Shown here: positions 41,681 to 64,000 of the stretch, piece after piece
Numbering within the stretch: position 1 is the first letter of the stretch
Layout of the letters: each line of letters starts with the position of its first letter
From: Fistulifera solaris
Taxonomy: Eukaryota
Direction: 5' to 3'
DNA length: 64,000 nucleotides
Assembly: GCA_030295235.1 (NCBI GenBank)
Contig: AP026150.1
Coordinates: forward strand, 496,001 to 560,000
Translations under genes and position numbers: made by a program
The notes under the pieces: model-generated
Database searches by the model: none
The model's input: the letters and a program-made list of their open reading frames with translations, nothing else
What the model was told of the DNA's origin: nothing

Positions 41681-42352
41681 GTTGTTGCTCATATTATGAC
41701 GACACACTTTAATTGAGTAGATCGTACAAGACTAAATGATAGTCTCACGTCGTCAAACCGTCTTAAATGGCAATTATGCGATTTGACAGATGGAAATTGA
41801 CGTTAATTGATTGCTATAGTATATTTTTGCATCCGCAATAAGTGAAAATCACTTGGTTGGCTAGCATCTAGCATCTGTAGCTGTAAAAACAGTCATTAGG
41901 AAGTCGTACTACATGAAATGTAAGCATGGTCGCCATTTTTACAGACTTGCGTTCCAGCACGATGATAATCTTTTGACGTAATTTCTTTGGACCACATCAT
42001 CAACCACAATAGAAATGGTTTGCCGATTCAACGGCTTGTTTGTCGAAAGTCAAAACGTAGCATGACCATTCATGACCGAAATTCAGTCACGAATAAAGTA
42101 TCTCTTACACTTTAAATTATAGTCATGCCACTTGCTTTCCCACTTAAGGTTACAGAGTAAGGAAGTTCCACCACAAAAAGAGCCGTATTTCATTTCTTGC
42201 GTTGAAACTTGAAACCGATCCTACTCTGAGAACGACAACAGCCTCTCATCATCCAGCCTATTATTACTAACACTTGAGAAAAAGGTAATTTACATATCTT
42301 GAAGACTTTGTGTAATAGAAGCAGTCATTCAGCGGCTCGAGTTTTTGTTAAA

Positions 42353-43810
42353 ATGAGCGGCAAAAAGCAAGACAATGGCTTCGGTCGCGATGACATGGCG
42401 GCCTTGTTGGGTGGCGGTTTACCGGAACGATTGATGCGCCCGCAAGTTCCTGTCATGAAAACCAACAAGGCAAGGAAAGATGTTGCGGACATGTCGACAC
42501 AAGAGACCGCGGCGTGGCTTTTGCAACAGCAGCAACAAAAGAAAGGAAAAGAAACGATGATTCAACGCCATCGTACTACGAAAGTACGAAAATATCACGA
42601 ATTACTTCTGGAAGAACAGCAGAATAGGTCTATGACAGCAGCACATCCATCCAAAGAAGATGATCACTCCGATAGTGGCGTGGATAGAAACAAGGAAACA
42701 GAAAAGGATGCATCAGTTGTACCGGTGATCACACGTCGCCGTCGACGTCCCAGCACCAGTAGTAGTAGTACTAGCAGTAGTAGTAGTAGTGGTGAGTCTT
42801 CCGCTCCTCCTCGTCGACCAAGACAAGATTCTTCCGACACTGACTCGGAAGAGGAGGTACGTCGTCAACGTGTCTTGCAACAAAGAAGGCAACACCAGCG
42901 GTCACCCGTCGACGACGCATCCAGCACGGAGGCAACACAATTTACACCATCACAGAGTCTTCCCGAGGCACCGAAAGTGATGCAATCCAAGCCGACGCGG
43001 TTCCCAGTGAAAAGCTCGAGTAGTAGTTCGAGTAGTAGCAGTACTTCCAGCGGAAGTTCATCGGACGACAGTTCCTCTGAGGAAGAAGCAGAAGAAGAAG
43101 TCCGCGCCAAGCCGATCTTCGTACCTCGTCACAAACGAGGAGTGATCCAATCGGCAGAGGAATTGGCAGAAGAAGAGAAAGCGAATGAAAATAAGCGCAA
43201 GCGGTTAGAGGAAAAGCGGATGAAAGAATCGCGAGCCATGGTGCAGAAAGTATTGCTCGATGCTTCGAAGCAAGTTGGTTCGAACGATGATGCCTTTGAA
43301 GGTATCACGGGGGCTCGTAACTCGGTACCGGATGATGATGACCTGGATGAAGACGAAGAATATGATAAATGGGAAGTTAGAGAGCTGGAAAGACTTGTCT
43401 ATGAATTGGATATGGAAAATGCACGCATGGAAGAAGCGCGAGAGCGTGAGCGGCGTCGTAATATGACAGATGAAGAAATCATGAGAGAAAGGATGGAGTC
43501 CGGCAGTCCACGAGACAAAGAAGAATCAAAGAGAACAGGGCAGCGCTACTTTCACCGTGGTGCATTCTACATGGACGAATCTGAATGGGATGAATCCGAC
43601 GTGCGCCACAAGGCCGAAGAATATGCGGCTGCAGCTACAGGAGCGGATAAAATCGACAAGATGGCTTTGCCCAAAATTATGCAAGTAAAAAATTTCGGCC
43701 GAGCTAATCAAAACTTGAAGTATCAGGGGCTAGCAGCTGAAGATACGACAGACAAGCAAATGAAAGTGCTTCCGATTCTTGGTCCAAAGCGCAAGAAAAA
43801 TCAAGTGTAG
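42353..43810 (+). CDS. MFAP1: MFAP1/Spp381 spliceosomal B-complex protein
   Basis: KPIFVP, EEYDKWEVRELERL, ERRRNMTDEE, QRYFHRGAFY, DKMALPKIMQVKNFGR, Y.GL..EDTT. Confidence 0.88.
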   Translation: MSGKKQDNGFGRDDMAALLGGGLPERLMRPQVPVMKTNKARKDVADMSTQETAAWLLQQQQQKKGKETMIQRHRTTKVRKYHELLLEEQQNRSMTAAHPSKEDDHSDSGVDRNKETEKDASVVPVITRRRRRPSTSSSSTSSSSSSGESSAPPRRPRQDSSDTDSEEEVRRQRVLQQRRQHQRSPVDDASSTEATQFTPSQSLPEAPKVMQSKPTRFPVKSSSSSSSSSSTSSGSSSDDSSSEEEAEEEVRAKPIFVPRHKRGVIQSAEELAEEEKANENKRKRLEEKRMKESRAMVQKVLLDASKQVGSNDDAFEGITGARNSVPDDDDLDEDEEYDKWEVRELERLVYELDMENARMEEARERERRRNMTDEEIMRERMESGSPRDKEESKRTGQRYFHRGAFYMDESEWDESDVRHKAEEYAAAATGADKIDKMALPKIMQVKNFGRANQNLKYQGLAAEDTTDKQMKVLPILGPKRKKNQV

Positions 43811-43955
43811 GAGGGCAAGTGATTTCGATTAGATACTGGACGCTCAGTTCCTTTTCCCTATCCCATTTCTATCATGTATGACGACACGACTACTCATTAC
43901 AAACACATGGCTTTAGAGTTGTCAGCGCTATGACTATTCTTCTACTGGTGCGTTC

Positions 43956-46900: not shown

Positions 46901-47047
46901 ACTCTGTTGCACTAGCCGCTTTTCCTTCATCATGAGTTCATGATCGGTCATGCGGGTCCTTGCGGCTTGTGAATGATTTGCTGTGGACGGGAAGCTTTCC
47001 ACCTTTTCATCCTTGGTTGTTTCTTCGTTTTTTTGTTCGTCGCTCAT
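43956..47047 (-). CDS. Single-pass membrane protein with disordered N-terminus and FG-GAP-like beta-propeller; frameshift ~44900
   Basis: PGAFAI motif, TM (YVICMLAICAVALVTISV), then repeats FG.SV.LS.DG..LAIGAP..G.V.VF..W.Q.G in ORF 43956..44885. Confidence 0.78.
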
Positions 47048-47421
47048 GTTATCTGTGGGAGTGTGTGAGGAGCGACACACTGTTAGTAAAGAAAACATGA
47101 AAAATGAAATTTTCTTTTTCCTCCCAGTCCAGGATCTCCTATCCTCTCGCTACGCACCTTTTTATTTTTTCTTCCGTCTCGTGATTTTAGCAAGTGAAGG
47201 CAAAAGCAATGTCTAACCACTGTCAAGACACGAAAGATATGAGAGAGGAATGACGACGTTGTTGTTCTTGTTGTGGAAGCATTCAATTACTTCGTTGTTG
47301 CAACGTTGTTTCGCGAGAACGAAAACGGTGTCGTGCTCCTACATTACTCCGTATTTGATAGCTGATGATTCGGGAACAGACGTACCGAGGACATACCAAT
47401 CCTACGAATTCCTCTGTAGTT

Positions 47422-47560
47422 GCGGTTCAGGTTAAAAATTATTTAAGGTACAGTCGTCTGATTACTTTTGAGCAGTTACGGTTCAGGTTAAAAATTTAGG
47501 GTATAGTCGTCTGGCTTTTTTTGGAGCGAATACGGTTCAGGTTACGAATTCAAGGTATAG
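47422..47560. repeat. ~55-57-bp tandem repeat, about 2.5 copies
   Basis: CGGTTCAGGTTA begins at 47423, 47479 and 47533, each followed by A..GGTA(C/T)AG; the first two continue GTCGTCTG..TTTTG. Confidence 0.85.
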
Positions 47561-47778
47561 AGGGAATCTTTCGTTCGAAATGTGCCCCGTTTGCGCTATA
47601 AGATGCGCGACCAAAGTGCCGATCTGTCAGTGTCCGAGCGGTGATGGCAAAATGCGACAGATCCGAAAACGCCGACGCCCCACACAACAATTTTCTGGAG
47701 ATGCGATGTTCCGAGAAACAAACCACAAACAGGCATTTCTTTACAACTTGACGCATTGATTGTTTTTTGTCGAATACC

Positions 47779-49261
47779 ATGACCAACATGAACAAGACTT
47801 ACACAAAAGAGAATGACAGCGACAGCGACGACTTTCAATTGTGGCAAGAAGCTGGAAAACTCATTCACATTTCCCTGCCTTCGGTCATGACACAATTCAA
47901 TCTCTACTTTATTTTTCCGCAATCGGCTTCTACCGTCGGACGATTGCTCGGAACCGCCGAATTGGCGGCTTTTTCGTTGGGAAGTTTAATCGGAAGTTTG
48001 ACCTGTTTGTCGGTCTTGGTGGGAGCCTTGTCGGGCCTCGATACACTGTTGCCGCGCGCGTACGGTCAACAGGAATATCGTGAATTGGGGCGCTTGTCGT
48101 TACGAGCGATTGTGGTGTGCTGTGCTTTACTTGCACCGGCCCTCATCGGCTTGTCCCAAACCGATTTCATGGAGTTTCTCTTTGTGCAAATTGGAAAACA
48201 AGATACGACTGTCGCCACACTGGCGGCACATACTTGGATTCCAATTTTCTTATGGGGTGTGCCGGCCAATCTGCTCTTTCGTGTGTGGCAACGTTTTTAG
48301 TAGCACAACATCAACCGTGGCCTCCGGCTTGTGCGAGTCTCGTGCCGACGTCACTGCTGCATCCCTTCTTTTGAAAGTACTCATTCCACTCTATGGCTTA
48401 AGCGGATCAGCGTACGCCATTGTCTTGACGCAGTGGAGTACGTTACTGCTTCTTTTACTTGTCATGGTTCGGAATCCGACTCATCAACCCGAATCACTGC
48501 CGGCGCTATTTTCGCTAGCATATTGGCAAGAATCACTCGCACTCGAACCCTTGGGACAGTTCTTGCATCTGAGTGTCGGAGGTGTGGTTAGTTTGTCGGA
48601 ATGGTGGTTTTGGGAAATCATGTGTTTTGCCGCGGGTTCCTTTGGTGTCGTGGCTTTGTGTGCGCATACAATCGCGTACAATCTCATTCCATTGTCGTTC
48701 ATGATTGTACTAGGGACGCAGATTGGCCTGTCGGTGCGTATGGGGACCTTGTTAGCGATGAAACAGTTCGATCATGCCAAGAAATTAGCAACTTGGACGA
48801 TGGGAGTGATTGCAGGCACGGGAGTCATGGCTGGTTGGGTACTGCATAGTCTGCGCCGAAACATTGTGTTGGTGTTTTCGAAAGATCCGGACGTCATGGC
48901 AGTCACATTGGCCATTTGGCCCAAAGTGTGCTACTATATCTTTGTCTTGTTTATATTTGGAATCAATTCCGCAATTTTGCGGACACTGGGAATGCAGTGG
49001 CAGATGGCGGTGGTTGTTTTTACCTCATTGTGGTGCTTTGCGCTACCTCTCGTGTTATACTTGGCCGTTTACCGAGGAGGCGGTCTCGACGAACAGTGGA
49101 CTATATTACCCATTGTCTACACGCTCATGCAAGTCTGGTTGGTGTTCACGTACGGCACAAAGGATTGGAAACAACAAAGTGCGCAGATTCAGCGCGTACG
49201 GACAGATGGAGAATCGGGAATCAACGAACAATCAAAACTTCTAGCAGGAATCGATTGCTAG
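47779..49261 (+). CDS. MATE multidrug/toxin extrusion transporter; frameshifts ~48295-48375
   Basis: VGRLLGTAELAAFSLG, GALSGLDTL..RAYG, SEWWFWE, GLSVRMG.LL, AILR..G.Q, DW near the C-terminus. Confidence 0.88.
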
Positions 49262-49430
49262 ATAATCAATTACTCGGAGTATACTGTAGCAATGCGCTCA
49301 ATCATGTTCAAAGAAAATCGTCTCACGCTCCAGGAAAATGACAAATCCAGAGACATTTTCAAGTCCTGTTCAGATAGACTATCGCATATACTGCATGGAA
49401 AGATTCGATGGAGAGTATATTTCTACCGAG

Positions 49431-51922
49431 TTAAGGAGTAAAATCGATTCCCAATAATACAGGACTATGGTCCGAGTTGCGAACAGCATTGGATCCGTCA
49501 AAGTAAGTTGCAAGGCGCCCAAAGTCCAAATTGTAATCCAGTGCATCGGGCTCGTCTTCATTGATGTGCCATTTCTTGGCATCTACGACCAAAGGGGCTA
49601 GGACGGCATTGACAAACACATAATCAAGAGTACCAATCATGCCGTCGAACACGTAACTGTACTGAACTTCCGGGTTAACGAAGATTTCACGGAACTTTGC
49701 GTTGGGATTAAACGTCGTGTCAGTCAGATATCGAACGGGATCTTCCTTGGCATACGAATTCAAGTCGCCGACAATGGCAATGTTTTTACAGGCCGCTCCA
49801 GTAGGATCCGTATCTAGCCACTGATCCAAAGCCTTGGCAGCCAACAATCGTCGGTTGTTAAAACTAGCAGCACCGTCGTTTTGATCTGCGTCAGCACCGG
49901 TTCCGGTTCCACCTTTTGACTTGAAGTGATTGTTTGCAATAGTAATACAATTTGCACTGCCAATAATCGTAAACGTAGCCGCCAACGATGCGCGATTTGT
50001 ATTAGGACCGTCAAAGAGTGTGCCGCTGGAGTCTTGATTCAAAAGGGTGCTGTTCAACGACTCGACAACGGCGTCATTCAGAATTGCCACACCGTCTACC
50101 ATGATGTTCGTTTTGTGAATGAATCCATTGGAGATGGCATCGCTGCTATCGACGTATTGTTGACCAGGATCGACCCAGTCATACGTTCGCGATGCTGTTA
50201 CACCGTTCAACGCGTCGGTCAAGAATTTTATGGCGTTGCCAGGAGATCCTGGCAGAAAATCATTCTCGATTTCAATCAAAGCGAAAATGTCGGCATCCAT
50301 CTCTAGAAGACAGGTGAGAAGCTTTTCCAGTTGTCGATCAAATTCAGTTTGACTATCGGCCCCCCGAGGGTCATTTCCATTCGATGTCTTGGCAGTTCCA
50401 ATGTCCAATGTCGTGAAGAAGTTCAGAACATTCAGCGTGACAATCTTGAGATCTCCGTTTAAAATCGGAGCAGCAGGGCGAGGATTCTCCGATACAAAGA
50501 TACACTTCCATCCGCTATACTGATGAGACGGTACAACGAAAATGAATAGTAAAGCACTCCAGTCAACGACGTAACACTGTCTCCCCATGCGAATGGGTGT
50601 GACGGGCCAGTTCTGGAATCCATCCAAGAGACGAATGTCATTGTTCTGCGTAGCCAAACCATCATCGTACGTTATGGTGCTGCGGGCGACAAGATCAAGA
50701 TAATCGGCGTATCCTTGGGTATTGGGGACACTCTGCTGCGTATACTGATAGAAGCGTTCAGTTGCTAGTTTTATCTCATTGAAACGATCAAGTTGGAACA
50801 TCTCCGTGATCACTAGCTTGTTACTGACTGTAACAAGCATACCTTCGAATGGTTCTAGGTCGGAGTTGCCCCCATTCGAGGCTGCAAGAGGCAGTGTGAT
50901 GGTAGCCGCGGTAGGAAGAGGATTTCCACTCGAGACCACCGTAATACGGGAGACATCACCAATCTGCGTACTACCAAAAGCTTCACCGGCTGTCCCAACC
51001 ACGATCACTTCATCACCCACGCTGACATCTGTCAACAAAGTTGGATCGTACACAAAGACACCTTCAGAAGTGAGAGGATTATTATCTGCGTCAACGTCTT
51101 CTTCTTGTACGAAAAATCCTGCCAAATTTCGCTTGGTATCACTATCACCATCTTGAAAATCACCTACAACGATGCCTTGAATCGTCACGACAACGCCATT
51201 GAGGGGTGTTGATGCCCCACTTCCTTGTACGGCTGATATCAGGGTAATGTCAGGATCCGTTCCTACATTTGTCTCACAACCCTTAAAATCATAGATCGAA
51301 TCACACAAGGTGTTGGTAGCGCAACCATCGAGGGCGTTCTTGCCACTCACCGTCCATTCCGCCTGGTTAAAAGTTACGGTCGGTGTCGAAGCAGTGCTCA
51401 CATTCTTGCGTTTGATCCAGCCATCGAGATATTCCCAGGCTTGGCCCGTACCATCGACGCCGACCTTACCGATTGTATCAATCGCAACTCCATTTTGCGA
51501 AGCAGAAAAGCATCGTCACCGTTTCCGAGAGAAGCGGATGTAAGATACTGTGGCGTGCAATTGAAATAGCTTAAAAATCCTGCTTCTCCGTTATTCGCGG
51601 TAGCCGCCAAGTAGATGTAGGTCCCTTGAGCCACCGAGTCGGAGGGAAACGTGTAAACGGCAGTCCCCATCGAAGCACCGTTATAGCCAATGGCCATGGT
51701 ATAAATGCTGAGGTCGGCAATGTTGGTGGTCGCAAAAAACTCGACGAATTTCGGATTCCCTCCAAATAGAGGGCCATCCAAAGCGCCGGACAAGATGAGT
51801 TCGGCCTGAAAACAATAGAACACAGCTTAGAATTGAGAACCCGTGGCTACAAATTCCATTATCGATCGACTTACCTTAGTAATCACGGCCAAGTATAACG
51901 AAAAGACAATGAAAAACTTCAT
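49431..51922 (-). CDS. Secreted ExeM/NucH-family extracellular endonuclease (lamin-tail-like + YhcR OB-fold + EEP domain); intron ~51807..51874
   Basis: Signal-peptide exon MKFFIVFSLYLAVITK then GTAAGT donor; ISAVQG.G..TPL.G..V...G.V.GDFQ, GFFVQEE, SEGVFVY, EPFEGMLV, NVLNFFTT, RGA....EF.RQ..K, EIEN, NHFKSKG, GDLNSYAKEDP, YSYVFDG..GTLD, WHIN.DEP, SDHSP. Frameshifts near 51410-51500 and 50510-50585. Confidence 0.88.
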
Positions 51923-53369
51923 GGTGACGGTCTTTATTTAATGTACACTTGCTAGCAGCGGCGACGAAAATCAAAGATGATATGAATGAGACCGTGCAAG
52001 GAAGCAATCGAGGACGTGATACACATTGATCGCATTTTCCATGAATCCTCATGAAAGTCGATGAATCTTTGTAGAGATTCGATTTGCTCTGATTGTTTTC
52101 TTTCAACGATTACGTCTCGTCAGATATACAGCTGTAGCTTGTATGATGTGCGAATCAGTTAACTGCACTCTCATATCGGAATGTTCTAATTACACTCGGA
52201 GTAGGTTAAATTGCAATTACTAGTGATAAACTAGACTAACTACTTGTAGTTCTGGTCTCACAGATTCATTTGGACGATGATGCGATTTGTCACGTTAAAA
52301 AATTTTTCGCACGTTTTTCTACAAAGTAATGCAAATTGACAGTAATTCTGACAATGGTAAAGGTTCGATCGTTTGAGCATATTTTGGCAAAACGGTTTTC
52401 CCGTCATACTGGTACGTTGTACTCCGTACCTGGTACTGCTAGTTGATAGAGGTGACTGCAAAACATGGTTCCGTTAATTCAATCAGCCAGAAATTCTGAT
52501 TGAAGGAGCCTTAGATGCTACCCCGTAGTAGCAATTTATGTGACTCGCCTATGCGGATGCTAATGCTTATAAACAAAAATCAGCGCCATATCAATATTTG
52601 CGTCGGCGTAAGGAGAGACACTTGGACCAAAGCCCGACTCAAATTGATCTCATTCCCGTTTGGTGACAAGAAACTACGAGCACTAATTTGTTTCACTGAC
52701 ACACGCGACATTTTGCTCTAACTGAATCTAACTTTTTAGGCAAAGAAGCAAAGAAATGGTTAAGAACAGCGAGGCATTCCGCAACCAAGTCATTAGACTG
52801 TCAGCGGAACATTAAGCACACATTAATATTTTCCAAGCCCTGCGCAACCGATGATGATTACAGTACAAATTAATGATCGACGGCACTTCCATTGTATCAA
52901 AGCAATCTCTCTGTCTAGTCTCTATGAGAAATTGGTGAGGTTAGACGCCAGACGCCTGGATATTCTTATAAACGTACTCCATAGTTACGGACAGACATAC
53001 GTGCGTGGATCGTGGAGGACGTTTTTCGTTTATGTCAAAAAAGTACCTGGTATGTCCTACCGAATGCCAAGTCCGGCTAAGAATTTCATCTAGACAGTAC
53101 TTAAAAGTGTGGTTTACAACCCCTGCTATAGTCGTGGTTCAACATTCCGCTACACTTTACCCTTAACTTAATCCCTCGCTTTCTGCTTCCCTCGCTGTTT
53201 CCTGATTCCTGTTTCCTTTTTCCATTCATTCGCAAAAGACTCTTACTACAAAGTATTTTTTTATAACTCCGTATCATTTTTACGTCCTCGCTGCTTGTTG
53301 GTTTAAATTCATCATCGTGTTTGATTGTTTCAGTATATAATATCGTGCTTTTGTAAATAATAAAAGGCC

Positions 53370-54866
53370 ATGTTTAAAGTCAAACGAAGAATAAGATCGA
53401 TTCGAGAAAAGAAGCAATCACGAACGAGCCATGAACCAGTGACAGATCCATCCAGCAGTGCCGCGACACCGCAACGCGGCATTTTGAAATCCGATAACTC
53501 CTGTAGGAGCAGTCAATCGCCCAATTCCTTGTCGATATGGGCCAGCAATTCAAGTCCGAGTGCTAGTGCTGCCGAAGAAGCACCAATTCAGGCAGGACTG
53601 CCAAGTGTCGGTAGCGCGGAACGCAACAATCATCATTCATTGGAGAAACCACGGCGTGTCCATTTTGATAGCGTACGGATCCGTGAATACGAACGAACAC
53701 TCGGTGATAATCCTTCTTGCTCCAGTGGAGCTCCTATTACGTAAGTTTCTAAGGGAGCAGCTGCTTCTAGCAGAATGCACATCTTATACTCAATCCGCAA
53801 TCAATCAATCATTCATTTTTCTTTTCTTTACAGACTGGGATGGTCGCATGGAAAAGAAAGTCGAGTGAATATTAATGAATACGAATCTGTCCGACAGAAG
53901 CGGCGGGATCAAAGGGAACTCACTCTGTCGCGAGTGGCGAGGGAGGAACTACTTTTGGAGTGGGGAGCGACGTTTAATGAAATTATTGAAGCAATACGGA
54001 CGAATGTGAAAATAAAGCATCAGCGAAGACGTACCGTGAATTCCATAGGGACATACGATAAACTAGAAGAGGCAATGGAGCGAGCCGGGCGAAAATTAAA
54101 GAAAACTTTGCTGCCGCAGAAAGGATCGGGATCACAACAGTGGAGAAACAATTCCGATTCAAAATACGCTCAGTCGTCGGCGTCGGATTCTCCCGTGTCG
54201 TCCTTGTCCTCCGAGCCCGTCACAGGTCATACAACAGCCATTGCGAATGCATCGGATGATTCGTCACAATCCAGTATTCGTCGGACGAATCATAAAACAG
54301 AGCAAATCAGGGAAATCACGGTGGAAGGTTTGCATGGAGGTAACCCCGCATCGAACGCGGTCCCTATAATAGTATCGCGCGAGTCTTTCTCGTTGTCGCG
54401 ACCGATTCCTTCCATTGAAATTCCCGCCGCGGCATCGTGTGCGAGTGCCATGTCGGTCCTAGAAGATGATTTTGACGAAGCTGGTTATGATGATTTTGAG
54501 GATTTACTGGATCCGTATATCACGGAGGAGGGTGATCGAATGTATCCATCGGAAATCCATTTAGTTGGTGACTATGACATGGAAACACTCACGGATAGTT
54601 ACGCTGGTTATTCGATGCACACTGCCGAGGGCTTTGAGACGCTGACGCGTGACCAATCTCACTGGAGAGTCGAAGCTGGGTCAACCAATTCGGGACCCAA
54701 AGTCAAGCCTGTGTTCAATCCCATTACAATTTACGAAGACGGTCCTGACGATCCTGGTCAATATCCGGGACCCATCAATCATCCATCGGTGGAAATGTGG
54801 CAGAGATCAGGCTTTCAAATGCAACCTCCGCCTCAGTCTTCGTCGTTCATTTCACGCTGGGACTGA
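53370..54866 (+). CDS. Uncharacterised 'GDNPSC-PI-W' family protein, paralogue A; exons 53370..53740 and 53834..54866
   Basis: RGILK..RRVHFDSVRIREYERTLGDNPSCSSGAPIT|LGW..INEYE..R.RR..REELL.EWG..KIK.QR..T. GTAAGT..TACAG intron. Confidence 0.82.
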
Positions 54867-55667
54867 AAGGTTGGCACGCCTGTTTTGGTTGTTAACGACT
54901 AGATGTATAATAGAATGCCAAATAGAATGAATTCCTAGCTGTATATGCGAGGACTCCTGCAGTTTTACACGCAGTGATCCGCAATCAAATTCCTATTCTG
55001 CCCTTAATCATCGCAAATTACATGAATGACAGCTCTATCCGAGACTGTTAATCATCCAGCTTTGTCTTTTCCTCGTTTAGTCGCTACCTAGAGAGCTGAG
55101 CAGGGTGCCTAGTACTAGGTGCGTGGAGCTTTGATGATGTAGGATAGAGGATAAAGCCCATGGGCCACCGGCCACTCGGCCACTCGCCACGCACCATGAA
55201 ATTTCAAGCCCTTGCGCCACTCTACTATAAAGCTATATGTACCTACAACACGTACGACGGGTCTTTTCCAACCAGTAAAAATGCCGTGAAAGTTCCGAAA
55301 AGATGACGGAGGATCGAGAACACACTCTCTTCTAAAGAGTAGGGAGTATCTGCCTCGGCACTCGGCACACTTGTCTGTTGCTATTGTTGCAAATCATCTG
55401 CAAAGGATCGCTTTTTGCTTTGATTGCCTTCACCATTGATTTTTGTTAACTACATTCTCAGTTGAAGCACATTTGAAACTAATCTTGTCAATTTACAACT
55501 ATATCCGCACCCCAAAGCCAGCGCAACTCTATTTAATTTCGAAACAGAATGAATAAACTTCGTTGCACTGACACTCTAATCTCACTCAATCCGCAAAGGA
55601 CGACGCTACAATCGAGGAAACCTCGACGTGCACATCGTTAGACGATTCCTTATCCTCGGGTAATTCT

Positions 55668-56247
55668 ATGCGAAGCACCAGCGTGGAAACAAGCATCGAT
55701 ACACCCAGCACAGCATTATCTGAAGGGCCTCTAACTACAATTATGAAACTCGACAATGGCCTCGAACGAAAAGTCTCGTTCAAACATGTTCATGTCAAAG
55801 AATTTGACCGTATTATCGGAGATAATCCTTCCTGCTCTTTTGGTGTTCCTATATCGTAAGTATTTAAGAGTGTGGTGAAGCCTAGTTTGTAGTGCTTTCT
55901 TTCTTTCGTGCTTTGTGTCTCACGCAGTCTCTCGCACACACAGAATTGGCTGGACCGTCGAAAACGAATCAGAAATTGATATGGAAGAATACGAGTCGTT
56001 TCGAGAACACCATCGTCGGAGTAAATTAGAAATGCTGTTACCGAAAGAAACACGGGAAGTTCTATTGATGGATTGGGGATGTTCGACTAAAGACATGTCG
56101 CTAGCCGTGAAGGAAAAAGTCAAGATCAAGAATCAACGAAACTTCACCGTCGCGAAACTCGGGCCCATTGATTCGTTGGAAGAATGGATGGAACGAGCAA
56201 ATCGCAAGATGAAAAAGATGTTTCGAAGACGTCAAACAAGCTCATAG
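55668..56247 (+). CDS. Same family, paralogue B; exons ~55668..55855 and 55944..56247 (start uncertain)
   Basis: RKVSFKHVHVKEFDRIIGDNPSCSFGVPIS|IGW..MEEYE..R..RR..REVLLMDWG..KIKNQR..T. GTAAGT..ACAG intron. Confidence 0.8.
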
Positions 56248-56511
56248 TTTTATCCGAAGGACTGCTATGTCTCAAGGCACTGTCTTGAGCTCGGATTCTG
56301 CTTGCATCAAAGCGAGCTGTTCTATGATTGAGTTACTATTTTCTAATTCCATGTTCGCCATCATTGGTTGATGGCCCATCTTCAAATTTTTGCATAATAC
56401 TCTATAGTTCTCTTTTTCTCAGTTCGTCAAAAGTAGTGAACGCATGTTATGCAACACTACTTTCTACGTAACTATTGCGTTGCCTTATTCAAATATATCC
56501 TACTGTAGCTC

Positions 56512-57180
56512 TTAAAAGAACGCTTTTCGTAATGCATCGTAATAACAAAATTCGAAAACTGTTTCATAAATGTGCGCACCCAAAATGGGGGGTCCCAACA
56601 ATCCATTTTCCAAAAAGGGAGCCGCCCGCGAGGTCTCAAGTAAACCTTTCTTTCTTCTTTCATTTCTAGTGACTGCTGATATTAATGGACGTAAGTGTTT
56701 CCATTTTTCCAAATCCAGTTGTTTGCCGTCTCCCGATTCCGAATCCGTATGATCACCCGAATGCGACTCTAAATCCAGATCGGAATCCGACACTTCCATA
56801 CGTTCCATCTGATGTTGCGCCCGAATCTTCTTGACTTCTTCCATTTTCTTGTCAAGTTCTTCCATTTCCTTTCGTGTACTTTTCTTAAACAGCATCTTTC
56901 GCACCAACGATCGACCAGCATTCTCCAACAACTCTTCGACTTTCGAATGTTTATCGAGATTGGTGACAGTCTGCCGCCGTTGATTCTTAATTTTAATGTT
57001 GGCGCGGACCGCATTCGCAATTTGCGTCTGTGAGACATCCCATTCGTACCGCAACATTTGTTGACGAATGTCGCGCGGTAAGACCATTTCAAAGTGGGCT
57101 CTCCGGGGCGGTCGCATTTCTTCGTATTTGTCTAACGAGATGACGGTAGATTGGGGATTGTATTCCCACGCAATACTATG

Positions 57181-57211
<31 letters not shown>

Positions 57212-57555
57212 CAGGAATGAGAAGAATAGTGCGATGAAGGAAACACGCACGATACACACAAAATATCCGCTTACCCGATCGGCGGACCGGCCGTGCAACT
57301 CGGATTGTCCGAAAGAGTCCGCGCATATTCGCGTATTTCAATATTGTGAAATTGAATGCCTTTGTTGTCATCTCTCTGTTTATAAGGATTGTGCAAACTG
57401 TCATCGACCGTTGTAACTTTGAGAATTCCTTTGATTCGATTACTAGGATACGTCGGGACGGATTTACTCCGCGCTCTCACTACTGTCATGCTCCGTGAAC
57501 TCTCCATCGTCGCCGATGCCGATTGGGCACGACCTTTTCGACGAAACATTATCAA
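56512..57555 (-). CDS. Same family, paralogue C; exons 57555..57275 and 57175..56512
   Basis: KGILK..KGIQFHNIEIREYARTLSDNPSCTAGPPIG|IAW..LDKYE..R..RR..RQQML..EW..KIKNQR..T. GTAAGC..CATAG intron. Confidence 0.8.
57184..57211. repeat. (GA)n microsatellite inside the intron of paralogue C
   Basis: Direct reading; forms the polypyrimidine tract on the minus strand. Confidence 0.9.
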
Positions 57556-58214
57556 TTGAGTTACAGGTTATAAACTGATTCAAAATTGGTGTAGTATATT
57601 TAAAAATGAAACAAGGGTGTCATAAAGAAGAAGAAGAAAGTCAATAATACTGCATAGCAACGCAAACGGTGTACGGAACCATAGGATGCAGTGTTACTCT
57701 CAAAAACAGCGCCGCAGAACGGCAAACAGAGCGAGCCAAAGCATTTCGCATTTCATAGCGCGGCGGAATTTTTCCCTTTGCAAAAGAAAATGCAACACAA
57801 ATGAAAACTCGAACATCCATCATCATTTACCAAGAATGACATCCTGCGACTCTCCACTCTCTCATTGTTTGTACAAAAGAAATCGACAAATCAGAAAGGA
57901 CAGTAGACAGGCAAAAACTGTTCCAGAGCCTGATTTGCATTGTACACTCTACACCAAACTCTCGGAGGAAGAGAAAAAAGATCGTCGGCCTTTCTTTCTT
58001 GTCTTCCCACTTCCCAACATCCTGGCGGAAGTTGTCAATATTTTTATCGTTACGTGGGTTACGTCATCCAGTGATCCGTCATCAACGCTATAGATGGCAT
58101 GCGCATGCAACGATGATCTGTTTCGACATCCATTCGTTGAGCAGAGAATTGCAAATGTCACTCTTAGCATGTCTCTGGAGAAGCTTTCCATAAAAGCCAG
58201 GCTGACCGCGGGAT

Positions 58215-58216
<2 letters not shown>

Positions 58217-58248
<32 letters not shown>
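58217..58248. repeat. (CT)n microsatellite
   Basis: Direct reading. Confidence 0.9.
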
Positions 58249-58252
<4 letters not shown>

Positions 58253-58892
58253 AGCTCGTGACAAAAAAGGGATATTCCGTATCCAGAGAAGGGACAAGTA
58301 CGGTACTCGTTCAGCTCGATTTTTGACGTCAATTTATCGAAAGATGCATCGCAAAGGCAGAAAACATACTACTAAAGAAGAGATGATTAACACAAGATTT
58401 CACGAAGGTGGACGATGGCGAACGCGAGAACCCATTGCAAAACGGATGCGCGAAAATTCTAGCTCGTGACTGCAAATCCAGTCCTGGAAAATCCGATAAC
58501 ACGCACGCGCCCATGCATCCGACGCGAATTTCAACAGTTTGGGTCGAACTACTATTGCAACTGAACCTACCAATGATGATTCTTCGCAATTTGGTAATCG
58601 GGGCGATATTATGATGAGAATGAGTTTGAGCACATGTACTGGCATGGTGCCTTTGGCCGGTTACAAAGAACGCCGACCGTCAAACTACGCTTACTCCCTC
58701 TTTCTCTTGAGCAATCTAACAAGCTAACAACATTCATCCCTTTTTTTAATTCAAATACACTGTGTTGTAGACAAAAAAACAGGGTAGCTTTTATTCCTTG
58801 ATCAAAACATGCGTTATTTATTCTGGCAAGTTCCGTTTCCAGTGCATTGCCGACAAGACAGAGCCTACCACTATTCTTCTGAAATTACAAAC

Positions 58893-59393
58893 TTATAGTT
58901 TCTTATTGTGTGTATCCTTTTGTTGCAATGTCGCCGTCGGATCCTCAATGCCGAGCGTTTGCAATACATCCGACAGGGACTCAATTTGACGTTGCAATAC
59001 CGCCGGCGGCCGGGCGGCCCGGATTTCTCCCGGTCGATCGACATATTCGAGAACTGCCATGTCGGCATTGTCTCCTTTGCGTCGTTGTGCCAATTTGAGA
59101 ATGCGCGTGTATCCACCTTCGCGGAATTGATACCGCGGCCCCAAGACGTTGAGTAGTTTGGTTTGTGCTTCGGCTGTTGTGACAATTTTGTTAATTTCTC
59201 GACGTGCATGTAACGGATCGTTCCCTTTGGCTTTCGTAATGAGTTTATCGGCCAAGTAACGTGCCTCCTTGGCTTTGTGTGTGGTAGTGACGATGCGTTC
59301 GTGCTCGACGAGCGATGTGACCATGTTTTTCAACATGGCCCACTTGTGTGCCGGAGTGCGACTGAGTTTGCGGAAATTAATACCTTTGCGCAT
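58893..59393 (-). CDS. Ribosomal protein bL17 (organellar, probably mitochondrial)
   Basis: RKLSRTPAHKWAMLKNMVTSLVEHERIVTT..KAKE, RY..REGGYTRILKL..R.GDNADMAVLEYV. Confidence 0.93.
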   Translation of the reverse strand: MRKGINFRKLSRTPAHKWAMLKNMVTSLVEHERIVTTTHKAKEARYLADKLITKAKGNDPLHARREINKIVTTAEAQTKLLNVLGPRYQFREGGYTRILKLAQRRKGDNADMAVLEYVDRPGEIRAARPPAVLQRQIESLSDVLQTLGIEDPTATLQQKDTHNKKL

Positions 59394-59872
59394 TCGAATG
59401 GTACCAGGTAGTTAAGAATGATGATGATGATGATGATGATAGTTGCTGAATGAAAAGTGAATTCAAAACAAGAGTTTGTATGACTTTATTGAGAGTATAC
59501 TAGTATTGTGAATTTGCGATGATCGGCGGTGCGGTGCTTTGCATCTCTCTCACAGTACCTTGGACAGTGGAGTGCTTTGTATTCAGTACAAAGTATTCAT
59601 TGCGCGGGACGCTCGATTTACGGGTGACGGTAGGACTGACAAAATATTATTCGGAACCCTAAGCACTTAAAAGGCTCCCTAGTCCGAAAAAGCGCCCTCC
59701 GACGACAAATAATAAATAGGAGTAATGATGTTCTCGTTTTTGTTGTTATTATTTCTTCTTTGTTTCTTTCAAAGGATCCGATTGCAACAGCCTACCTTCT
59801 TTTATAGTCGACTCCTTTGTTCCTATTTACTTACTTGTCTTACGTAGAAGCCAAACATATCAATAGAACAGA

Positions 59873-60991
59873 ATGCAGTCGACTTTGCGAATAATACTGG
59901 ATGCGATAGTGCGGTCCATTGTATCACTCGCGGTGATAGGAATCGGAATGAACGCTCAAGCAGTTTGGACGGTGATACCGTCTCCGTTTTTGGCCTTGTG
60001 TGGCGGTTTCATCGCCTTTACGTGGATTTTTCCCACGTTTTGGACGTGTTGTGTATTGGGTATTTTGGGGACGCCATCTTCCTGGAAGAGTATTCTGCAG
60101 AGTCTTCGAAAACAAAACACTATCAAACAACATGGATTATCGAGTATTTTCGCTGTTTTCACAACACTCTGGCAAGGCCTCATCTTTCGACCATTTCATT
60201 GTCCCAAAAAGCTCCGTACACGGCTTCCACAATGGATCATTCCGCTTCTTTTTCGAGAAAATTCCGTCATGATTCCTCCCATCATCCATTCGTCTATCAC
60301 ATTATCCGTTCGCAATGAATACTGGATCTTGGTCAACGGTATAGGAACAAATTTAACAATGGCACAACAAAGTCAAGAAACAATACAACGACTCTTTGCA
60401 AGACCCTGTTGGTTGTATTACATTCCCACCAACAGTCTTTGGTTCGATTTGTTATATAAATTTGTTGAAGATCGCCTGGGATGGACGAAACCATTTCCAC
60501 AACAACAACAACAACAACAACCACTCTTGTTTCAAACCCTACACAATGCCATTGTTCAAGCCGCGGCGGGACGGTATGAACGTGTGGTACTCATCACACA
60601 CGCATCGGGAGTCTGTACCACGTTACAAGAATTACACGATATGGATCCACACTTTTCCCATCTGTTGCAACGATTTTTAGAAGTTTACACATTTGGTGGA
60701 CCCAAGGTACCACACGTGGGTGCGTATTTGGAACATTTGGTCAATGGAAGAGATTCGGTGGCGTGGTGGGGAGTACTGTTTCCGTATCCGCGTGTTTGGC
60801 GAAATGTTCACGGCACGTCGATATCGGTCAACGGACGACTTTGCAAAGAACCCGAGCAATGGGGCCATTTGTTACAAGCGCACTATTTAGAACCCATGAT
60901 AGAAAAGGGGGCCTTTCGGTCCAGTCGTTTAAATGCGTTTCGAAATGGACAAGCAGGAACGCGGGTCTTCCAGTTGAACTCGTCCCAGTAG
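59873..60991 (+). CDS. Membrane-anchored alpha/beta-hydrolase-like hypothetical protein
   Basis: N-terminal TMs; EYWILVNGIGT, VVLITHASG, LEVYTFGG, EHLVN..D.VA..GVL, GHLL..HYL. Confidence 0.65.
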   Translation: MQSTLRIILDAIVRSIVSLAVIGIGMNAQAVWTVIPSPFLALCGGFIAFTWIFPTFWTCCVLGILGTPSSWKSILQSLRKQNTIKQHGLSSIFAVFTTLWQGLIFRPFHCPKKLRTRLPQWIIPLLFRENSVMIPPIIHSSITLSVRNEYWILVNGIGTNLTMAQQSQETIQRLFARPCWLYYIPTNSLWFDLLYKFVEDRLGWTKPFPQQQQQQQPLLFQTLHNAIVQAAAGRYERVVLITHASGVCTTLQELHDMDPHFSHLLQRFLEVYTFGGPKVPHVGAYLEHLVNGRDSVAWWGVLFPYPRVWRNVHGTSISVNGRLCKEPEQWGHLLQAHYLEPMIEKGAFRSSRLNAFRNGQAGTRVFQLNSSQ

Positions 60992-61581
60992 AAAGAGAAA
61001 TGGAAGTTTTCTTTACCGAATCACTTGTCTCATCATTTTGCAATCGGTCAATGCTCATCCCTTGAATTTCGAAAAACAAGGCAACGAACGAAGGATAGCC
61101 AAATATAGCTGGCTTCCCGTGGCCAGATTTTGTCACTTAGTTCGATCCTTTACAAGTAGCTAGTTCAAAAGGGCATGCGGCATGTCGGACGCGGATATTG
61201 TCGCAGCAGTACCTGTACTATACGATTGACAGAGAGAATTGTTTAGAACCGTTTTATTATTTTTACCAACGGACACAAAGTTTTGTATTTAAATCTCACC
61301 TGTGGGCTATTTGTCGGTTGAAGTAGGACGAACTTTGAAGCGCGATAGTCGACTGTAGCCAAACCTCCGCCGCATTTGTTCGAGAGAAAACGGTATTGAA
61401 GAAGATCGACTGAAAAAATGGCGCACCCAGAACCCAAAAATGGCAGGCGACAAAAAATAATAATAATGTGCGATGGCAATAACTCGAATCATTTCTTCCT
61501 TGATTACCAGTATTCATTCAACGAGAGAGTGCGTTTCGATTTGTAACACTCCCAAGATACCATAACAAGTATATCCAAAGC

Positions 61582-64000
61582 ATGATGGAGGAAAGAAACA
61601 ACATTCTCAAAATACCGCAAGAAGCTCCAGGAGAATTACCTTCTCGTTCCTGGGAGGAAGAAGACGAAGACGAAAACGAACCGAGAAACGACGCCGAGGA
61701 AGAAGAGGATGTCAATGATGATGACGACGACGAAGATTCCTCGTTTGGTCCTCCTCCACCACCACCGCCTCTCACGCCGCATCCGGAAGATACTTTAAAT
61801 TATACGATAGCCAGTGATAGCTTATTTTACGATGAAGAGTCACCCCGAAAGACGGATCCTCCGCAAGTGTCTCCCTATTCCAAAGACAGCGAATACAATT
61901 ACGATAACGATATTGACGACGATAGTGTGCCTCCCGGTGCACCCGCAGTGGATTGGGAAGAAGATCAATCGGTTGAAATCCCTCCTACGAAAGTCGTCAA
62001 GCGTTGGGACAAAAAAAGAGACACGAAGAAGAATGTTATTGCGACAAGATAAAAATTACTTTGCGGCCAAAGTAATTGCTTCGGTAGCGTGTTGTTTAAT
62101 CGTTTTGGTGATCATTTTGACCGCAGGATTTGGTTCCGGGGCCTTTCGAAAAGACGAACAAAGCAGTGCCGTAGCTCCTCCGCCGACGATGCCGATAACC
62201 ATTGCACCGACCGTGTCCCCACCCGCCGAAACCCCGGTGGCACCTTCCGTGGACAACAACAATTCCACGGTCAATCGCCCTTCGGTATTGCAAGATCTCT
62301 TACGGTCATCCAGTTATAATCCCGACGCGTTCACTGATGTTCAGAGCGCCGAATCACTGGCAGCCAATTGGCTCATTGTCTCGGATCCATTGCAATTGGA
62401 TCCAACGAAAGATCAATTTCGTATTCAACAAAGATACGCCTTGTTGACTCAGTATTTTGCTGCCGATGGCTCGTGGAGCAATGAAGAAGGCTGGTTGACA
62501 GCGGAAGATGAATGCACTTGGTACGGTGTCCAGTGTGCCCAGGATGCTGGAGGCACTCGGAATGCCGTCGTTGCGATCAATTTCGCCGTCAACAATGTTG
62601 GCACGATTACACCGGATATTGCCATGTTGACGAATGTGACAACATTGAACCTGACGGGTAATCCTTGGGAGGGTGGTTTCCCTACAGCTATCACGAATAT
62701 GCCACAGCTCCGCAGTCTCGACTTGGAAAACTTGGGTCTCACGGACGACATATCGTCCGTGGATTTCTCCGTGTTTTCCAACATGGAAGTGCTTCGCTTG
62801 CGAGGAAACTTTTACAGGGAACATTAAATTCGTTTTACTCCATGATCAATCTCGTGGAAGTGCAAGCCTCCGGTGGCAACAATCTTACTCTGGCAATCAA
62901 CTCGAGTATTGCCAATTTGGCAAAATTGCAAATTTTGAATCTGAATGGATGTTCCATTACCGGCGGATTGGTGGCGGAATTGGGTGCGCTGACCGCCTTG
63001 ACCACCATCGACCTCGGGCGGGCGGCACCGTCTAACACAGTCGGTTTGACGGGGCCCATTCCAGCCAGTATTAATCAACTGACACAACTCACCACACTCG
63101 ACTTGTCCAGTAATCTATTGACGGGAGCGATTCCGGACATGACAGGCGTACCCTTACAGATCCTGCGTCTGAGTAACAATAATTTTGGCCAAGCTGCGAT
63201 TCCGGATTCGATTTACACTTTGACAGGTCTCGTTGACTTGAATATGGCCAATTGCAAGCTTATTGGTAGTATTGGCACCGGCATCGGTAGTTTAACATCA
63301 CTCCGAATATTGGCGCTTGATGCAAACTTTCTCAGTGGTGCTCTACCGGACGCAATGGACCAACTGCTGCAACTGCAAAGCTTGACTTTGCGCTTGAACA
63401 TGTTCGAAACGGCTATACCCGCTTCTTGGACAAGTCTTGTCAATCTTCAAATACTTGACCTACAGAACAGCAGAATCACTGGGCCTATTCCCAGCACTGT
63501 GGGCAGCATGGCAAGTCTGCGTGAACTACGCTTGTCCGAAAATCGAATCACCGGTGCGATTCCTGGTTCGCTCACGCAGCTGGTGTTGTTGGAGGAATTG
63601 GAGCTGCATACGAATGCACTGACAGGTGGAATTCCATTCGATATTGGGTCTCTCGTCAATCTCCGCATTTTAAGACTTCATGACAACACTCGCGCCGTGA
63701 TTCCTGGTTCCGGGCTGGTGGGCCAACTCCCTACGTCGCTCGGCAGCTTGACCAACTTGCTCGAGTTTGAAATCTATGACAATTTCATGAGCGGTCCACT
63801 GCCGTGGGAGATGGGAAGTCTAGTAAAGCTTCAGCTTTTGGATGTTGAATTCAATCTATTCACTGGTTTGGTACCCGATTCTTTTGCGGGACTGTCGTCT
63901 CTGCAAAGTTTTTATCTTTCAGGAAACAACTTTACCGCCGGCGCCCTACTACCCGAGTCTCTATGTTCCATTCCGAATCTGGACTTGGTATCCGACTGCG
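61582..64000 (+). CDS. Single-pass leucine-rich-repeat (plant-type LRR) membrane protein; frameshifts ~62015 and ~62815; truncated by the window end
   Basis: Acidic N-terminus, TM (VIASVACCLIVLVIILTAG), QRYAL..WL...DEC.WYGV.C cap, then many L.L..N.LTG.IP..LG.L..L repeats to position 64000. Confidence 0.88.

What the first reader, a model, noticed from the sequence alone, without database searches (positions are those of the whole stretch)
53370..57555. Cluster of three paralogues with an identical intron and SILK + RVxF-type docking strings: candidate lineage-specific PP1 regulatory family
Seen: three adjacent genes (+,+,-) that the ORF track splits share the core [RK]xV/IxF-xx-V/IxV/I-[RK]E[YF]xRx[LI][GS]DNPSCxxGxPIx[LI]xW...YE..R..RR...R..[LM]L..W...KIK.QR..T. 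Each has a phase-2 GTAAG..AG intron at exactly the same codon after PI (53741..53833, 55856..55943, 57274..57176). Paralogues A and C also carry an upstream GILK. Established: [GS]IL[KR] (SILK) and RVxF are protein phosphatase 1 docking motifs, and Phactr/neurabin regulators use an extended RVxF-phiphi-R(-W) string. Inference: these are uncharacterised PP1-targeting subunits with different tails, kept as an old local expansion. C has a non-canonical KGIQF.
Basis: partly seen in the sequence, partly recalled or inferred. Interest (0 to 1): 0.78.

Follow-up and report, generated by a model that had tools for sequence, protein, structure and literature searches.

The report
Diatom family of likely PP1-binding proteins
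Three neighbouring diatom genes share a conserved, unannotated domain of about 115 residues that very probably clamps onto protein phosphatase 1, and the same domain turns out to define a very large diatom gene family that no database names.

Summary
Three adjacent genes (A +, B +, C -) each carry one copy of a roughly 115-residue domain. A phase-2 GT..AG intron splits the domain at the same position in all three. Contigs of public runs carry the spliced forms of all three.

The window closely matches Fistulifera solaris proteins.

The domain has no Pfam, PDB-sequence or fold match. It is nevertheless a huge family: 6143 representative clusters at E<=1e-10. Every named member comes from a diatom or a diatom-bearing dinoflagellate.

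- **RVxF positions:** across 110 domains they read V/I in 104 and F/W in 110.
- **SILK-like motif:** it lies upstream in 67 of 185 proteins, against 4.8 expected.
- **Complex model:** paralogue C with a diatom PP1 scored 0.93, best control 0.00. It places SILK, RVxF and the following strand in their canonical pockets and the GDNPSC..W hairpin on the beta12-beta13 loop.
- **Conservation:** conserved residues concentrate at that interface.

Kinship with animal CSRNP_N remains only a lead.

The parts
53370..53740 (+). Gene A, exon 1. Holds GILK at 53478..53489, RRVHF at 53652..53666 and the first 42 positions of the domain.
   Evidence: The F. solaris homeologue P0007 is 91.6% identical over 467 aa.
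53741..53833 (+). Gene A intron, 93 nt, GTAAGT..ACAG, phase 2.
   Evidence: Spliced contigs: 15 letters equal to 53726..53740 directly precede 53834 in X2 (2 contigs) and X4 (1). The P0007 protein reads across the junction.
53834..54866 (+). Gene A, exon 2. The rest of the domain runs to about 54110. A tail of about 250 residues follows, with a conserved C-terminal motif.
   Evidence: The tail is mostly below pLDDT 50 in the AlphaFold2 model of P0007.
55549..55855 (+). Gene B, exon 1, with RKVSF at 55767..55781. As the window stands, the first in-frame ATG is 55668. With the extra A that the reads show after 55594, the ATG at 55549 comes into frame.
55856..55943 (+). Gene B intron, 88 nt, GTAAGT..ACAG, phase 2.
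   Evidence: Joint 55855->55944, GT..AG, in one contig each of X2 and X3. A 14-letter loose end equal to 55842..55855 precedes 55944 in X4.
55944..56247 (+). Gene B, exon 2. Holds the rest of the domain and a short basic tail.
57275..57549 (-). Gene C, exon 1, with GILK at 57429..57418 and KGIQF at 57363..57349.
   Evidence: P0205 (F. solaris FisN_18Lh259) is 98.8% identical over 253 aa.
57176..57274 (-). Gene C intron, 99 nt, GTAAGC..ATAG, phase 2. It contains a (GA)n run.
   Evidence: X3 contig record 21 lies on 57275..57600 and then on 57174..57071 with no other letters (table 8).
56666..57175 (-). Gene C, exon 2. The stop at 56666..56668 applies when the extra T that all four runs show after 56703 is read. 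The window's own frame stays open to 56512.
   Evidence: The 261-aa length of P0205 agrees. A poly-T loose end at 56480 in X3 marks a likely poly(A) site.

Best explanation
A, B and C are three old paralogues of a large diatom family of PP1-interacting proteins. They act as regulatory or targeting subunits of the protein phosphatase 1 catalytic subunit.

Their shared core of about 115 residues is a composite PP1-binding domain. In the model it has these parts, in order:
1. An optional upstream SILK-type motif, present in A and C, fills the SILK pocket.
2. The [KR]x[VI]xF string fills the RVxF pocket.
3. The next residues (V/I-x-I/V-R-E-Y) add a beta-strand alongside PP1's last strand, which is the PhiPhi mode.
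4. The invariant GDNPSC..G.P[IV].[IL]GW hairpin sits on the beta12-beta13 loop beside the active site.
5. The following arginine-rich helices lie along the PP1 surface.

The divergent tails would give each holoenzyme its location or substrate. A has a long disordered tail with conserved short motifs, B a short basic tail and C an acidic tail.

What is shown: the gene structures, the splicing, the family, its conservation pattern, and a strongly scoring complex model.

What is inferred: actual binding, and whether the subunit inhibits PP1 or re-specifies it. Contact with the beta12-beta13 loop and with the residue equivalent to Arg96 makes an effect on catalysis or substrate access plausible.
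For: **Conservation.** 110 near-full-length domains were examined: 107 database proteins plus the 3 window proteins.
- The V position reads V81, I23, L4, M1, T1.
- The F position reads F106, W4.
- R23, P33, G38, W45, R78 and R106 are invariant or nearly so.

**SILK-like motif.** [GS][ILC][LM][KR] lies upstream in 67 of 185 proteins, against 4.8 expected from shuffled upstream sequence. The strict form [GS]IL[KR] occurs in 24 of 185. The median distance is 30 residues.

**Complex model.** Score 0.93, best of 3 controls 0.00. That mark was reached by 51 of 78 solved complexes and 2 of 108 mismatched pairs. On eukaryotes it was reached by 39 of 65 solved pairs with no like older complex and by 2 of 126 unrelated pairs. 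The runs agree in at least 71% of their contacts, and the partner's pLDDT is at least 74.

**Interface.** PP1 numbering is that of P0334. Subtracting 5 gives human PP1alpha numbering; that register is recalled.
- K63-F67 touch I174, L248, F262, R266, L294, C296 and F298.
- E71-Y75 pair with Q299-K302.
- I39-K44 touch E59-I64 and F124.
- N82, P90-I93 and W95 touch P275-A284.

**Conserved columns at the interface.** 13 of 18 columns conserved at 90% or more are modelled contacts, against 34 of 98 other columns. Fisher p=0.004; Mann-Whitney p=4e-5.

**The PP1 used is a diatom PP1.** P0334 is Epithemia clementina. Its 90% cluster holds PP1s of Pseudo-nitzschia, Corethron, Attheya, Skeletonema and Entomoneis.

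**Literature.** Animal CSRNP1/3 have a SILK-linker-RVxF arrangement (passages of PMC11536154). CSRNP2 is PPP1R72 (passage of PMC6482147). The Atlas's nearest named clusters are oomycete proteins, of which 21% carry CSRNP_N. This is a lead only.
Against: - There is no experiment.
- RVxF is a degenerate motif that many non-binders carry.
- The complex tool can score from memory of the many solved RVxF complexes, and it did not use my alignments.
- Only paralogue C's protein was modelled. The PP1 came from another diatom genus.
- In the AlphaFold2 monomer the residues straight after RVxF already form strands of a confident fold, with pLDDT 85-95 over about residues 65-220. Classic docking motifs sit in disordered chain.
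- B lacks SILK, as do 118 of 185 family proteins.
- HMMER finds no link to any known PP1-regulator family. 0 of 3, 0 of 114 and 0 of 16 proteins hit CSRNP_N, PP1c_bdg or the like.
- The language model behind the complex prediction may itself encode conservation, so one search is not fully independent.
Confidence: 0.7

Rival explanations
1. The domain is mainly a nucleic-acid-binding or transcription-factor module. It would be a basic helix-turn-helix-like unit, as proposed for animal CSRNPs. The RVxF and SILK strings would be secondary or irrelevant.
For: - The second half is helical and arginine/lysine-rich, with a long basic helix at residues 141-186 of P0205.
- The only PDB sequence similarity is a weak match of 'LSReeReelLeelGYs..elaeavR' to the LuxR-type HTH of VraR, E=0.27-0.47.
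- CSRNPs are nuclear, activate transcription and bind AGAGTG (abstract of PMC1950078).
Against: - The VraR match is not significant.
- The fold searches gave no HTH match: Foldseek best E=1.2, VIA best Z 4.8, on the long helix only.
- The cysteine-rich region that marks CSRNPs is absent from A, B and C.
- Several invariant residues of the helices (R129, R158, T161) are modelled PP1 contacts.
- This reading does not exclude PP1 binding. CSRNP2 is both.
Confidence: 0.12
2. The domain is a self-contained fold with another, unknown partner or function. The RVxF-like and SILK-like strings would be structural residues that only mimic PP1 docking motifs, and the high complex score would be recall of solved RVxF complexes.
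For: - The AlphaFold2 monomer is a confident fold that begins right after the RVxF string.
- The RVxF consensus is loose.
- The complex tool warns that pairs resembling solved complexes can pass from memory.
- There is no detectable sequence link to any known PP1 regulator.
Against: - The interface is far larger than a motif, with 259-277 contacts. It includes family-specific invariant residues on a PP1 loop.
- All three controls scored 0.00.
- The SILK-like motif is enriched about 14-fold upstream at a typical spacing.
- F is replaced only by W, the one substitution the RVxF pocket accepts (the pocket rule is recalled).
Confidence: 0.15

Closest known systems
Animal CSRNP1-3 (AXUD1; CSRNP2 = PPP1R72), N-terminal region, Pfam CSRNP_N PF16019
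   Same: - The order is SILK, linker, RVxF (passages of PMC11536154).
- They are recognised PP1 regulatory subunits (passage of PMC6482147).
- By my recollection of the CSRNP_N pattern, not tested, RVxF is followed by V-x-V, an aromatic residue, R, then a G..PS..G..LG[MW] stretch and a basic helical part.
- The Atlas's nearest named look-alike clusters carry CSRNP_N on 21% of members.
   Different: - There is no HMMER match to PF16019 in 0 of 3, 0 of 114 (E<=0.01) and 0 of 16 (E<=10) family proteins.
- There is no cysteine-rich region.
- The proteins are much shorter.
- The family is hugely expanded in diatoms, against three genes in mammals.
RVxF-PhiPhi-R(-W) string regulators (Phactr1, spinophilin/neurabin, PNUTS, PPP1R15)
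   Same: RVxF is followed a few residues later by hydrophobic residues that add a strand to PP1, then by conserved arginines and a tryptophan. Phactr1 also remodels a substrate groove (abstract of PMC7599070).
   Different: Here the string is part of a folded, family-specific domain. Its GDNPSC..W hairpin is modelled on the beta12-beta13 loop. There is no sequence or fold match to these families.
Inhibitor-2
   Same: It uses SILK plus an RVxF-type motif plus a third element that reaches the catalytic face of PP1. This is recalled; I-2's SILK motif is named in a passage of PMC11536154.
   Different: I-2 is intrinsically disordered and its third element is a helix over the active site. No similarity was found.

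Membership tests
RVxF-type PP1-interacting proteins (functional class) | [KR]-x(0,1)-[VI]-{P}-[FW] motif conserved among homologues | tested here: met
   A has RRVHF, B RKVSF and C KGIQF. Across 110 domains, V/I holds the V position in 104 and F/W the F position in 110.
RVxF-type PP1-interacting proteins (functional class) | Physical binding to the RVxF groove of PP1c | not testable with these tools
   Only a model exists: score 0.93 against best control 0.00, with the motif on I174/L248/F262/R266/L294/C296/F298 of P0334. Pull-down or ITC is needed.
SILK-motif PP1 regulators | [GS]IL[KR] N-terminal to the RVxF motif | tested here: met
   GILK is present in A (60 residues upstream) and C (24 upstream) and absent from B. 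Family-wide, 24 of 185 proteins carry the strict form and 67 of 185 the loose form, against 4.8 expected.
Pfam CSRNP_N (PF16019) | Match to the family HMM at or above its gathering score | tested here: not met
   There was no match at all: 0 of 6 exon pieces, 0 of 3 full-length homologues (E<=10), 0 of 114 representatives (E<=0.01) and 0 of 16 (E<=10).
CSRNP proteins | Cysteine-rich region with 10 conserved cysteines after the basic region (PMC1950078, passages) | tested here: not met
   No cysteine-rich stretch follows the basic region in the exon-2 translations of A, B or C, or in P0007.
CSRNP_N, remote homology | Profile-profile similarity (HHpred-type) between the diatom family and PF16019 | not testable with these tools
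   No CSRNP sequence or Pfam profile could be obtained. Only the Atlas lead exists.
PPP1R15/GADD34 PP1c_bdg, Phactr and other Pfam PP1-regulator domains | HMM match | tested here: not met
   None is listed for any of the 139 proteins and pieces scanned.
LuxR-type helix-turn-helix | Significant sequence or fold match | tested here: inconclusive
   The best PDB sequence match is VraR at E=0.27. No HTH appears among the fold hits.

The most novel reading that the evidence does not exclude
The core is a previously unrecognised folded PP1-binding domain rather than a string of short motifs. It would clamp PP1 from the SILK pocket, through the RVxF groove and the PhiPhi strand, to the beta12-beta13 loop at the edge of the active site. 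It would be the stramenopile counterpart, and possibly the ancestor-like form, of the animal CSRNP N-terminal region. Its expansion to thousands of sequence clusters would make it the main supplier of PP1 holoenzyme diversity in diatoms.
Probability: 0.35. Interest if true: 0.8.

Novelty: new variant of a known kind. Interest (0 to 1): 0.62.

Why it matters
PP1 gains its specificity from regulatory subunits, and almost all known ones come from animals, fungi and plants. For diatoms, which are major primary producers and, like Fistulifera, oil-producing strains, I found no paper on RVxF-type regulators. 'diatom' + 'RVxF' gave 1 unrelated paper. 'CSRNP' + 'oomycete' gave 0.

If the reading holds, several things follow:
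- A family with thousands of sequence clusters and no database name would gain a function.
- PP1 biologists would have a new, larger-than-motif binding mode to test, one that reaches the toxin-binding loop.
- The origin of the poorly understood CSRNP N-terminal region would become a testable question.

Tried and rejected
**Sequence and fold searches that found nothing useful.**
- Pfam on exon pieces, full-length homologues and 130 family members gave nothing. In one search, 11 of 114 proteins had single weak hits. All were below the curated cut-offs and to unrelated families.
- PDB sequence search: the single protein gave 0 hits at E<=10. The profile gave only VraR-type HTH at E>=0.27.
- Fold search of the P0205 model: Foldseek against PDB had best E=1.2. 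VIA-align wide had best Z 4.8, with rows covering only the long helix at 128-195. The strand-rich part was barely tested, so I do not claim a new fold.

**Things that were not available.**
- No whole genome is held. Paralogue number and the organism's own PP1 could not be taken from it.
- No PP1 gene lies in the window.
- The link to CSRNP_N could not be tested by profile comparison because no CSRNP sequence could be obtained. All three word-based searches and the exhaustive search returned lists filled by close family members.

**Sequencing runs.**
- No RNA holder is listed. The four runs are only guessed to be RNA and belong to one study.
- A 21-letter loose end upstream of B, from homeologue contigs, has no match in the window at up to 3 mismatches. 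I read it as homeologue divergence, not as an upstream exon.
- Joints 55660->55753 and 56234->56317 come from contigs with many other letters, that is the other homeologue. I did not read them as introns.

**Earlier findings.** Nothing on this genome or this sequence. One unrelated note on another genome appeared.
Full report
**What is in the sequence**

Reading 52800..58200, listing stop-to-stop frames and translating the six exon pieces confirms three genes.
- Gene A (+): exon 1 at 53370..53740, intron at 53741..53833, exon 2 at 53834..54866, 467 aa.
- Gene B (+): exon 1 ends at 55855, intron at 55856..55943, exon 2 at 55944..56247.
- Gene C (-): exon 1 at 57549..57275, intron at 57274..57176, exon 2 from 57175.

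The three introns are 93, 88 and 99 nt long. They begin GTAAG and end AG. Each follows the second base of the codon after 'P-I'. I built a profile of the shared core from database relatives and ran it over all six frames of the 64 kb window. It finds exactly these three copies, each broken between profile positions 42 and 43. Every other ORF scores E>1. The shared intron position is therefore exact, not approximate.

**Transcripts**

Four public runs of one study hold the stretch. Their kind is only guessed as RNA. When they are laid on the window, X1 contigs run through the introns and the intergenic DNA. Contigs of X2-X4 carry the joined forms.
- B: a joint 55855->55944, GT..AG, in one contig each of X2 and X3. 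A 14-letter loose end equal to the end of exon 1 precedes 55944 in X4.
- A: 15 letters equal to 53726..53740 stand directly before 53834 in X2 (2 contigs) and X4 (1).
- C: one X3 contig with no other letters lies on 57275..57600 and then on 57174..57071.
- A poly-T loose end at 56480 fits a poly(A) tail of C.

Several contigs differ from the window by about 8%. I read these as the second homeologue.

All runs that cover the places carry an extra A after 55594 and an extra T after 56703. The first brings an ATG at 55549 into B's frame. The second ends C at 56666..56668.

**Whose DNA it is**

- A's exon 2 core is 94% identical to Fistulifera solaris FisN_18Hh257 (P0007). Spliced A is 91.6% identical to it over 467 aa.
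- Spliced C is 98.8% identical over 253 aa to FisN_18Lh259 (P0205, 261 aa). The mismatch at the end is explained by the extra T.

The window therefore closely matches F. solaris (Naviculales), probably the 'L' homeologue of chromosome 18. The gene numbers 257 and 259 suggest the same gene order on both homeologues.

**The family**

- Word-based searches returned 39, 40 and 277 relatives.
- Every hit that carries an organism name is a diatom: Phaeodactylum, Nitzschia, Cylindrotheca, Seminavis, Mayamaea, Epithemia, Attheya, an MMETSP entry whose name is cut off at 'Prob', and a Bacillariaceae MAG. The one exception is Kryptoperidinium foliaceum. By recollection, that dinoflagellate harbours a diatom endosymbiont.
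- An exhaustive profile search of 1.84 billion representatives found 8408 proteins at E<=0.001, 6143 at E<=1e-10 and 970 at E<=1e-30. The 150 listed all had E<2e-44. The profile also contained tail columns, so the loosest count may include some noise.
- None of the database hits carries a precomputed Pfam domain.
- hmmscan found no meaningful family in 6 exon pieces, 3 full-length relatives, 114 representatives (E<=0.01) or 16 short members (E<=10).

This is a very large, unnamed family seen across diatoms. It is not a Fistulifera peculiarity.

**Age of the three copies**

- Core identities are 47% for A-B, 42% for A-C and 38% for B-C.
- In a FastTree tree of 111 cores, A sits with P0007 and P0012. 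C sits with P0205, P0078 (Mayamaea) and P0053. B is on a long branch of its own.
- The smallest clade holding any two of the three contains 77 to 111 of the 111 tips.
- A-type proteins share a tail with a conserved C-terminal motif across many relatives. C-type proteins share 'SILK..T.DESL' upstream.

The duplication is old and the copies have stayed adjacent. I could not test whether the neighbourhood is conserved in other diatoms.

**Conservation of the docking positions**

I examined 110 near-full-length domains, made up of 107 database proteins and the 3 window proteins.
- The V position is V81, I23, L4, M1, T1, and the F position is F106, W4.
- The two positions before V are basic in about half of the domains.
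- V/I-x-I/V follows. Then come R (109 of 110), Y/F (109), R (105), G-D-N-P-S-C (P in 110 of 110), G (110), P-P-[IVL]-x-[IL]-G-W (W in 110), E (109), and arginines at profile positions 78 and 106 (110 each).

Isoleucine in C's KGIQF is therefore the normal second choice.

A SILK-like [GS][ILC][LM][KR] lies within 120 residues upstream in 67 of 185 proteins that start with M and have at least 30 residues upstream. Shuffling those upstream stretches predicts 4.8. The strict [GS]IL[KR] form occurs in 24 of 185. The median distance is 30 residues. The proteins are related, so these are counts, not independent events.

**Fold**

AlphaFold2 on P0205 with 88 family rows gave mean pLDDT 77. Blocks from residue 61 to 220 scored 85-97.
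- Strands: 69-72, 75-79, 91-97, 102-105.
- Helices: 106-112, 126-136, 141-186, 192-223.

The core is predicted to be a real domain. Foldseek against the PDB (best E=1.2) and VIA-align against 48,161 chains (best Z 4.8, only the long helix aligned) gave no informative match. The strand part was barely tested, so I make no claim of a new fold.

For the A-type protein P0007 (37 rows), the tail at 220-466 is mostly below pLDDT 50. The exceptions are a small hairpin at 400-415 and a terminal helix at 458-465. The first half of the core also scored low there, because most rows of that alignment lack exon 1.

**Getting a diatom PP1**

The window holds no PP1 and no genome is held. I scanned metagenome contigs with a degenerate pattern for a PP1-specific motif. 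I extracted complete ORFs and looked them up by exact sequence. The ORF L056:288-1265 (P0333) belongs to a 90% cluster whose named members are all diatoms. Its representative, P0334, is from Epithemia clementina.

**The complex model**

P0334 (327 aa) was modelled with residues 30-200 of P0205.
- The three runs scored 0.94, 0.93 and 0.93, median 0.93. The best of 3 controls scored 0.00.
- That mark was reached by 51 of 78 solved complexes and 2 of 108 mismatched pairs. On eukaryotes it was reached by 39 of 65 solved pairs with no like older complex and by 2 of 126 unrelated pairs.
- The runs agree in at least 71% of contacts, and the partner's pLDDT is at least 74.
- The tool did not use my alignments. 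It warns that likeness to solved complexes can produce a pass from memory, and many RVxF complexes are solved.

The interface has 259-277 contacts.
- I39-K44 (the GILK motif) lie on Q54-I64 and Y119-F124.
- K63-F67 lie on I174, L248, F262, R266, L294, C296 and F298.
- E71-Y75 pair with Q299-K302.
- N82, P90-I93 and W95 lie on P275-A284.
- R101 and Y139 of PP1 are also touched.

The invariant motifs of P0334 show a constant offset of +5 from human PP1alpha numbering as I recall it. On that register these are the SILK pocket, the RVxF pocket (I169, L243, F257, R261, L289, C291, F293), the PhiPhi strand, the beta12-beta13 loop, and Arg96 and Tyr134 near the catalytic site.

Of 18 domain columns conserved at 90% or more, 13 are modelled contacts, against 34 of 98 other columns (Fisher p=0.004; Mann-Whitney p=4e-5).

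**Relation to known families**

The Atlas feature search placed oomycete clusters next to the diatom ones. One of them carries PF16019 CSRNP_N on 21% of its members (score 0.91). That is a lead, not a test.

- Passages of PMC11536154 describe a SILK-to-RVxF linker taken from CSRNP1 and CSRNP3.
- A passage of PMC6482147 names CSRNP2 as PPP1R72.
- The abstract and passages of PMC1950078 describe CSRNPs as nuclear, DNA-binding proteins with serine-rich, basic and cysteine-rich regions.

My recollection of the CSRNP_N pattern resembles the diatom core, but I could not bring a CSRNP sequence into the session. HMMER finds no match, and the cysteine-rich region is absent. I therefore say the diatom domain works like the CSRNP N-terminal PP1-binding region, and I do not file it as a member.

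**Verdict**

The most likely mechanism is a composite, domain-sized PP1 clamp with paralogue-specific tails for targeting. Whether it inhibits PP1 or re-specifies it is open.

The rivals are a nucleic-acid-binding role, or a fold whose motifs only mimic docking strings. Neither is excluded, but both fit the conservation pattern and the model less well.

I found no paper on such proteins in diatoms. Supplements were not consulted.

Noticed in passing
window 55594, 56428, 56611, 56703: The sequencing contigs carry one extra base in homopolymer runs at these four places. At 55594 the extra A is in X1 (2 contigs), X2 and X3, and at 56703 the extra T is in all four runs. The window therefore has single-base differences that shift B's start and C's stop.
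   Followed up: partly
window 53834..54866 (gene A tail); alignment A5: A-type proteins from many relatives end in a conserved proline-rich motif closing with W-E/D. They also share a conserved 'FE.L.RD.S.W' block about 70 residues earlier. The tail is otherwise predicted to be disordered. These are probably short partner-binding motifs.
   Followed up: partly
proteins P0039, P0049, P0051, P0060: Four database gene models of relatives carry an insertion of about 30-40 residues exactly after 'P[IV]', where the window genes have their intron. It looks like read-through of an unspliced intron, which suggests the intron position is shared widely across the family.
   Followed up: no
window 57188..57215 and about 58230..58270: There are (GA)n / (TC)n dinucleotide runs inside the intron of C and again about 1 kb further on. 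In one frame the second run reads as a Glu-Arg repeat.
   Followed up: no
window 53300..57600, contigs of X2-X4: Many cDNA-like contigs differ from the window by about 8% (for example 83 other letters in 886). This fits transcripts of the second homeologue, so both homeologous copies of A and B appear to be expressed.
   Followed up: partly
window 1..64000: Gene content by Pfam on long ORFs: Tab2-like RNA-binding protein, amino-acid transporter, ABC transporter, PDZ protein, calpain, TLC-domain protein, HSF-type factor, tyrosine phosphatase-like protein, dihydroorotate dehydrogenase, UPF0047, PX and Ysc84 ORFs that overlap (perhaps one gene), a sugar transporter split over two ORFs, MFAP1, FG-GAP protein, MatE, ribosomal protein L17 and LRR proteins.
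   Followed up: no
profile A2, positions 81-123 (helices after the hairpin): There is a weak, non-significant resemblance to the LuxR-type helix-turn-helix of VraR (E=0.27-0.47), on the stretch 'L-S-R-x-E-R-E-x-L-L-x-x-x-G-Y-S'.
   Followed up: partly
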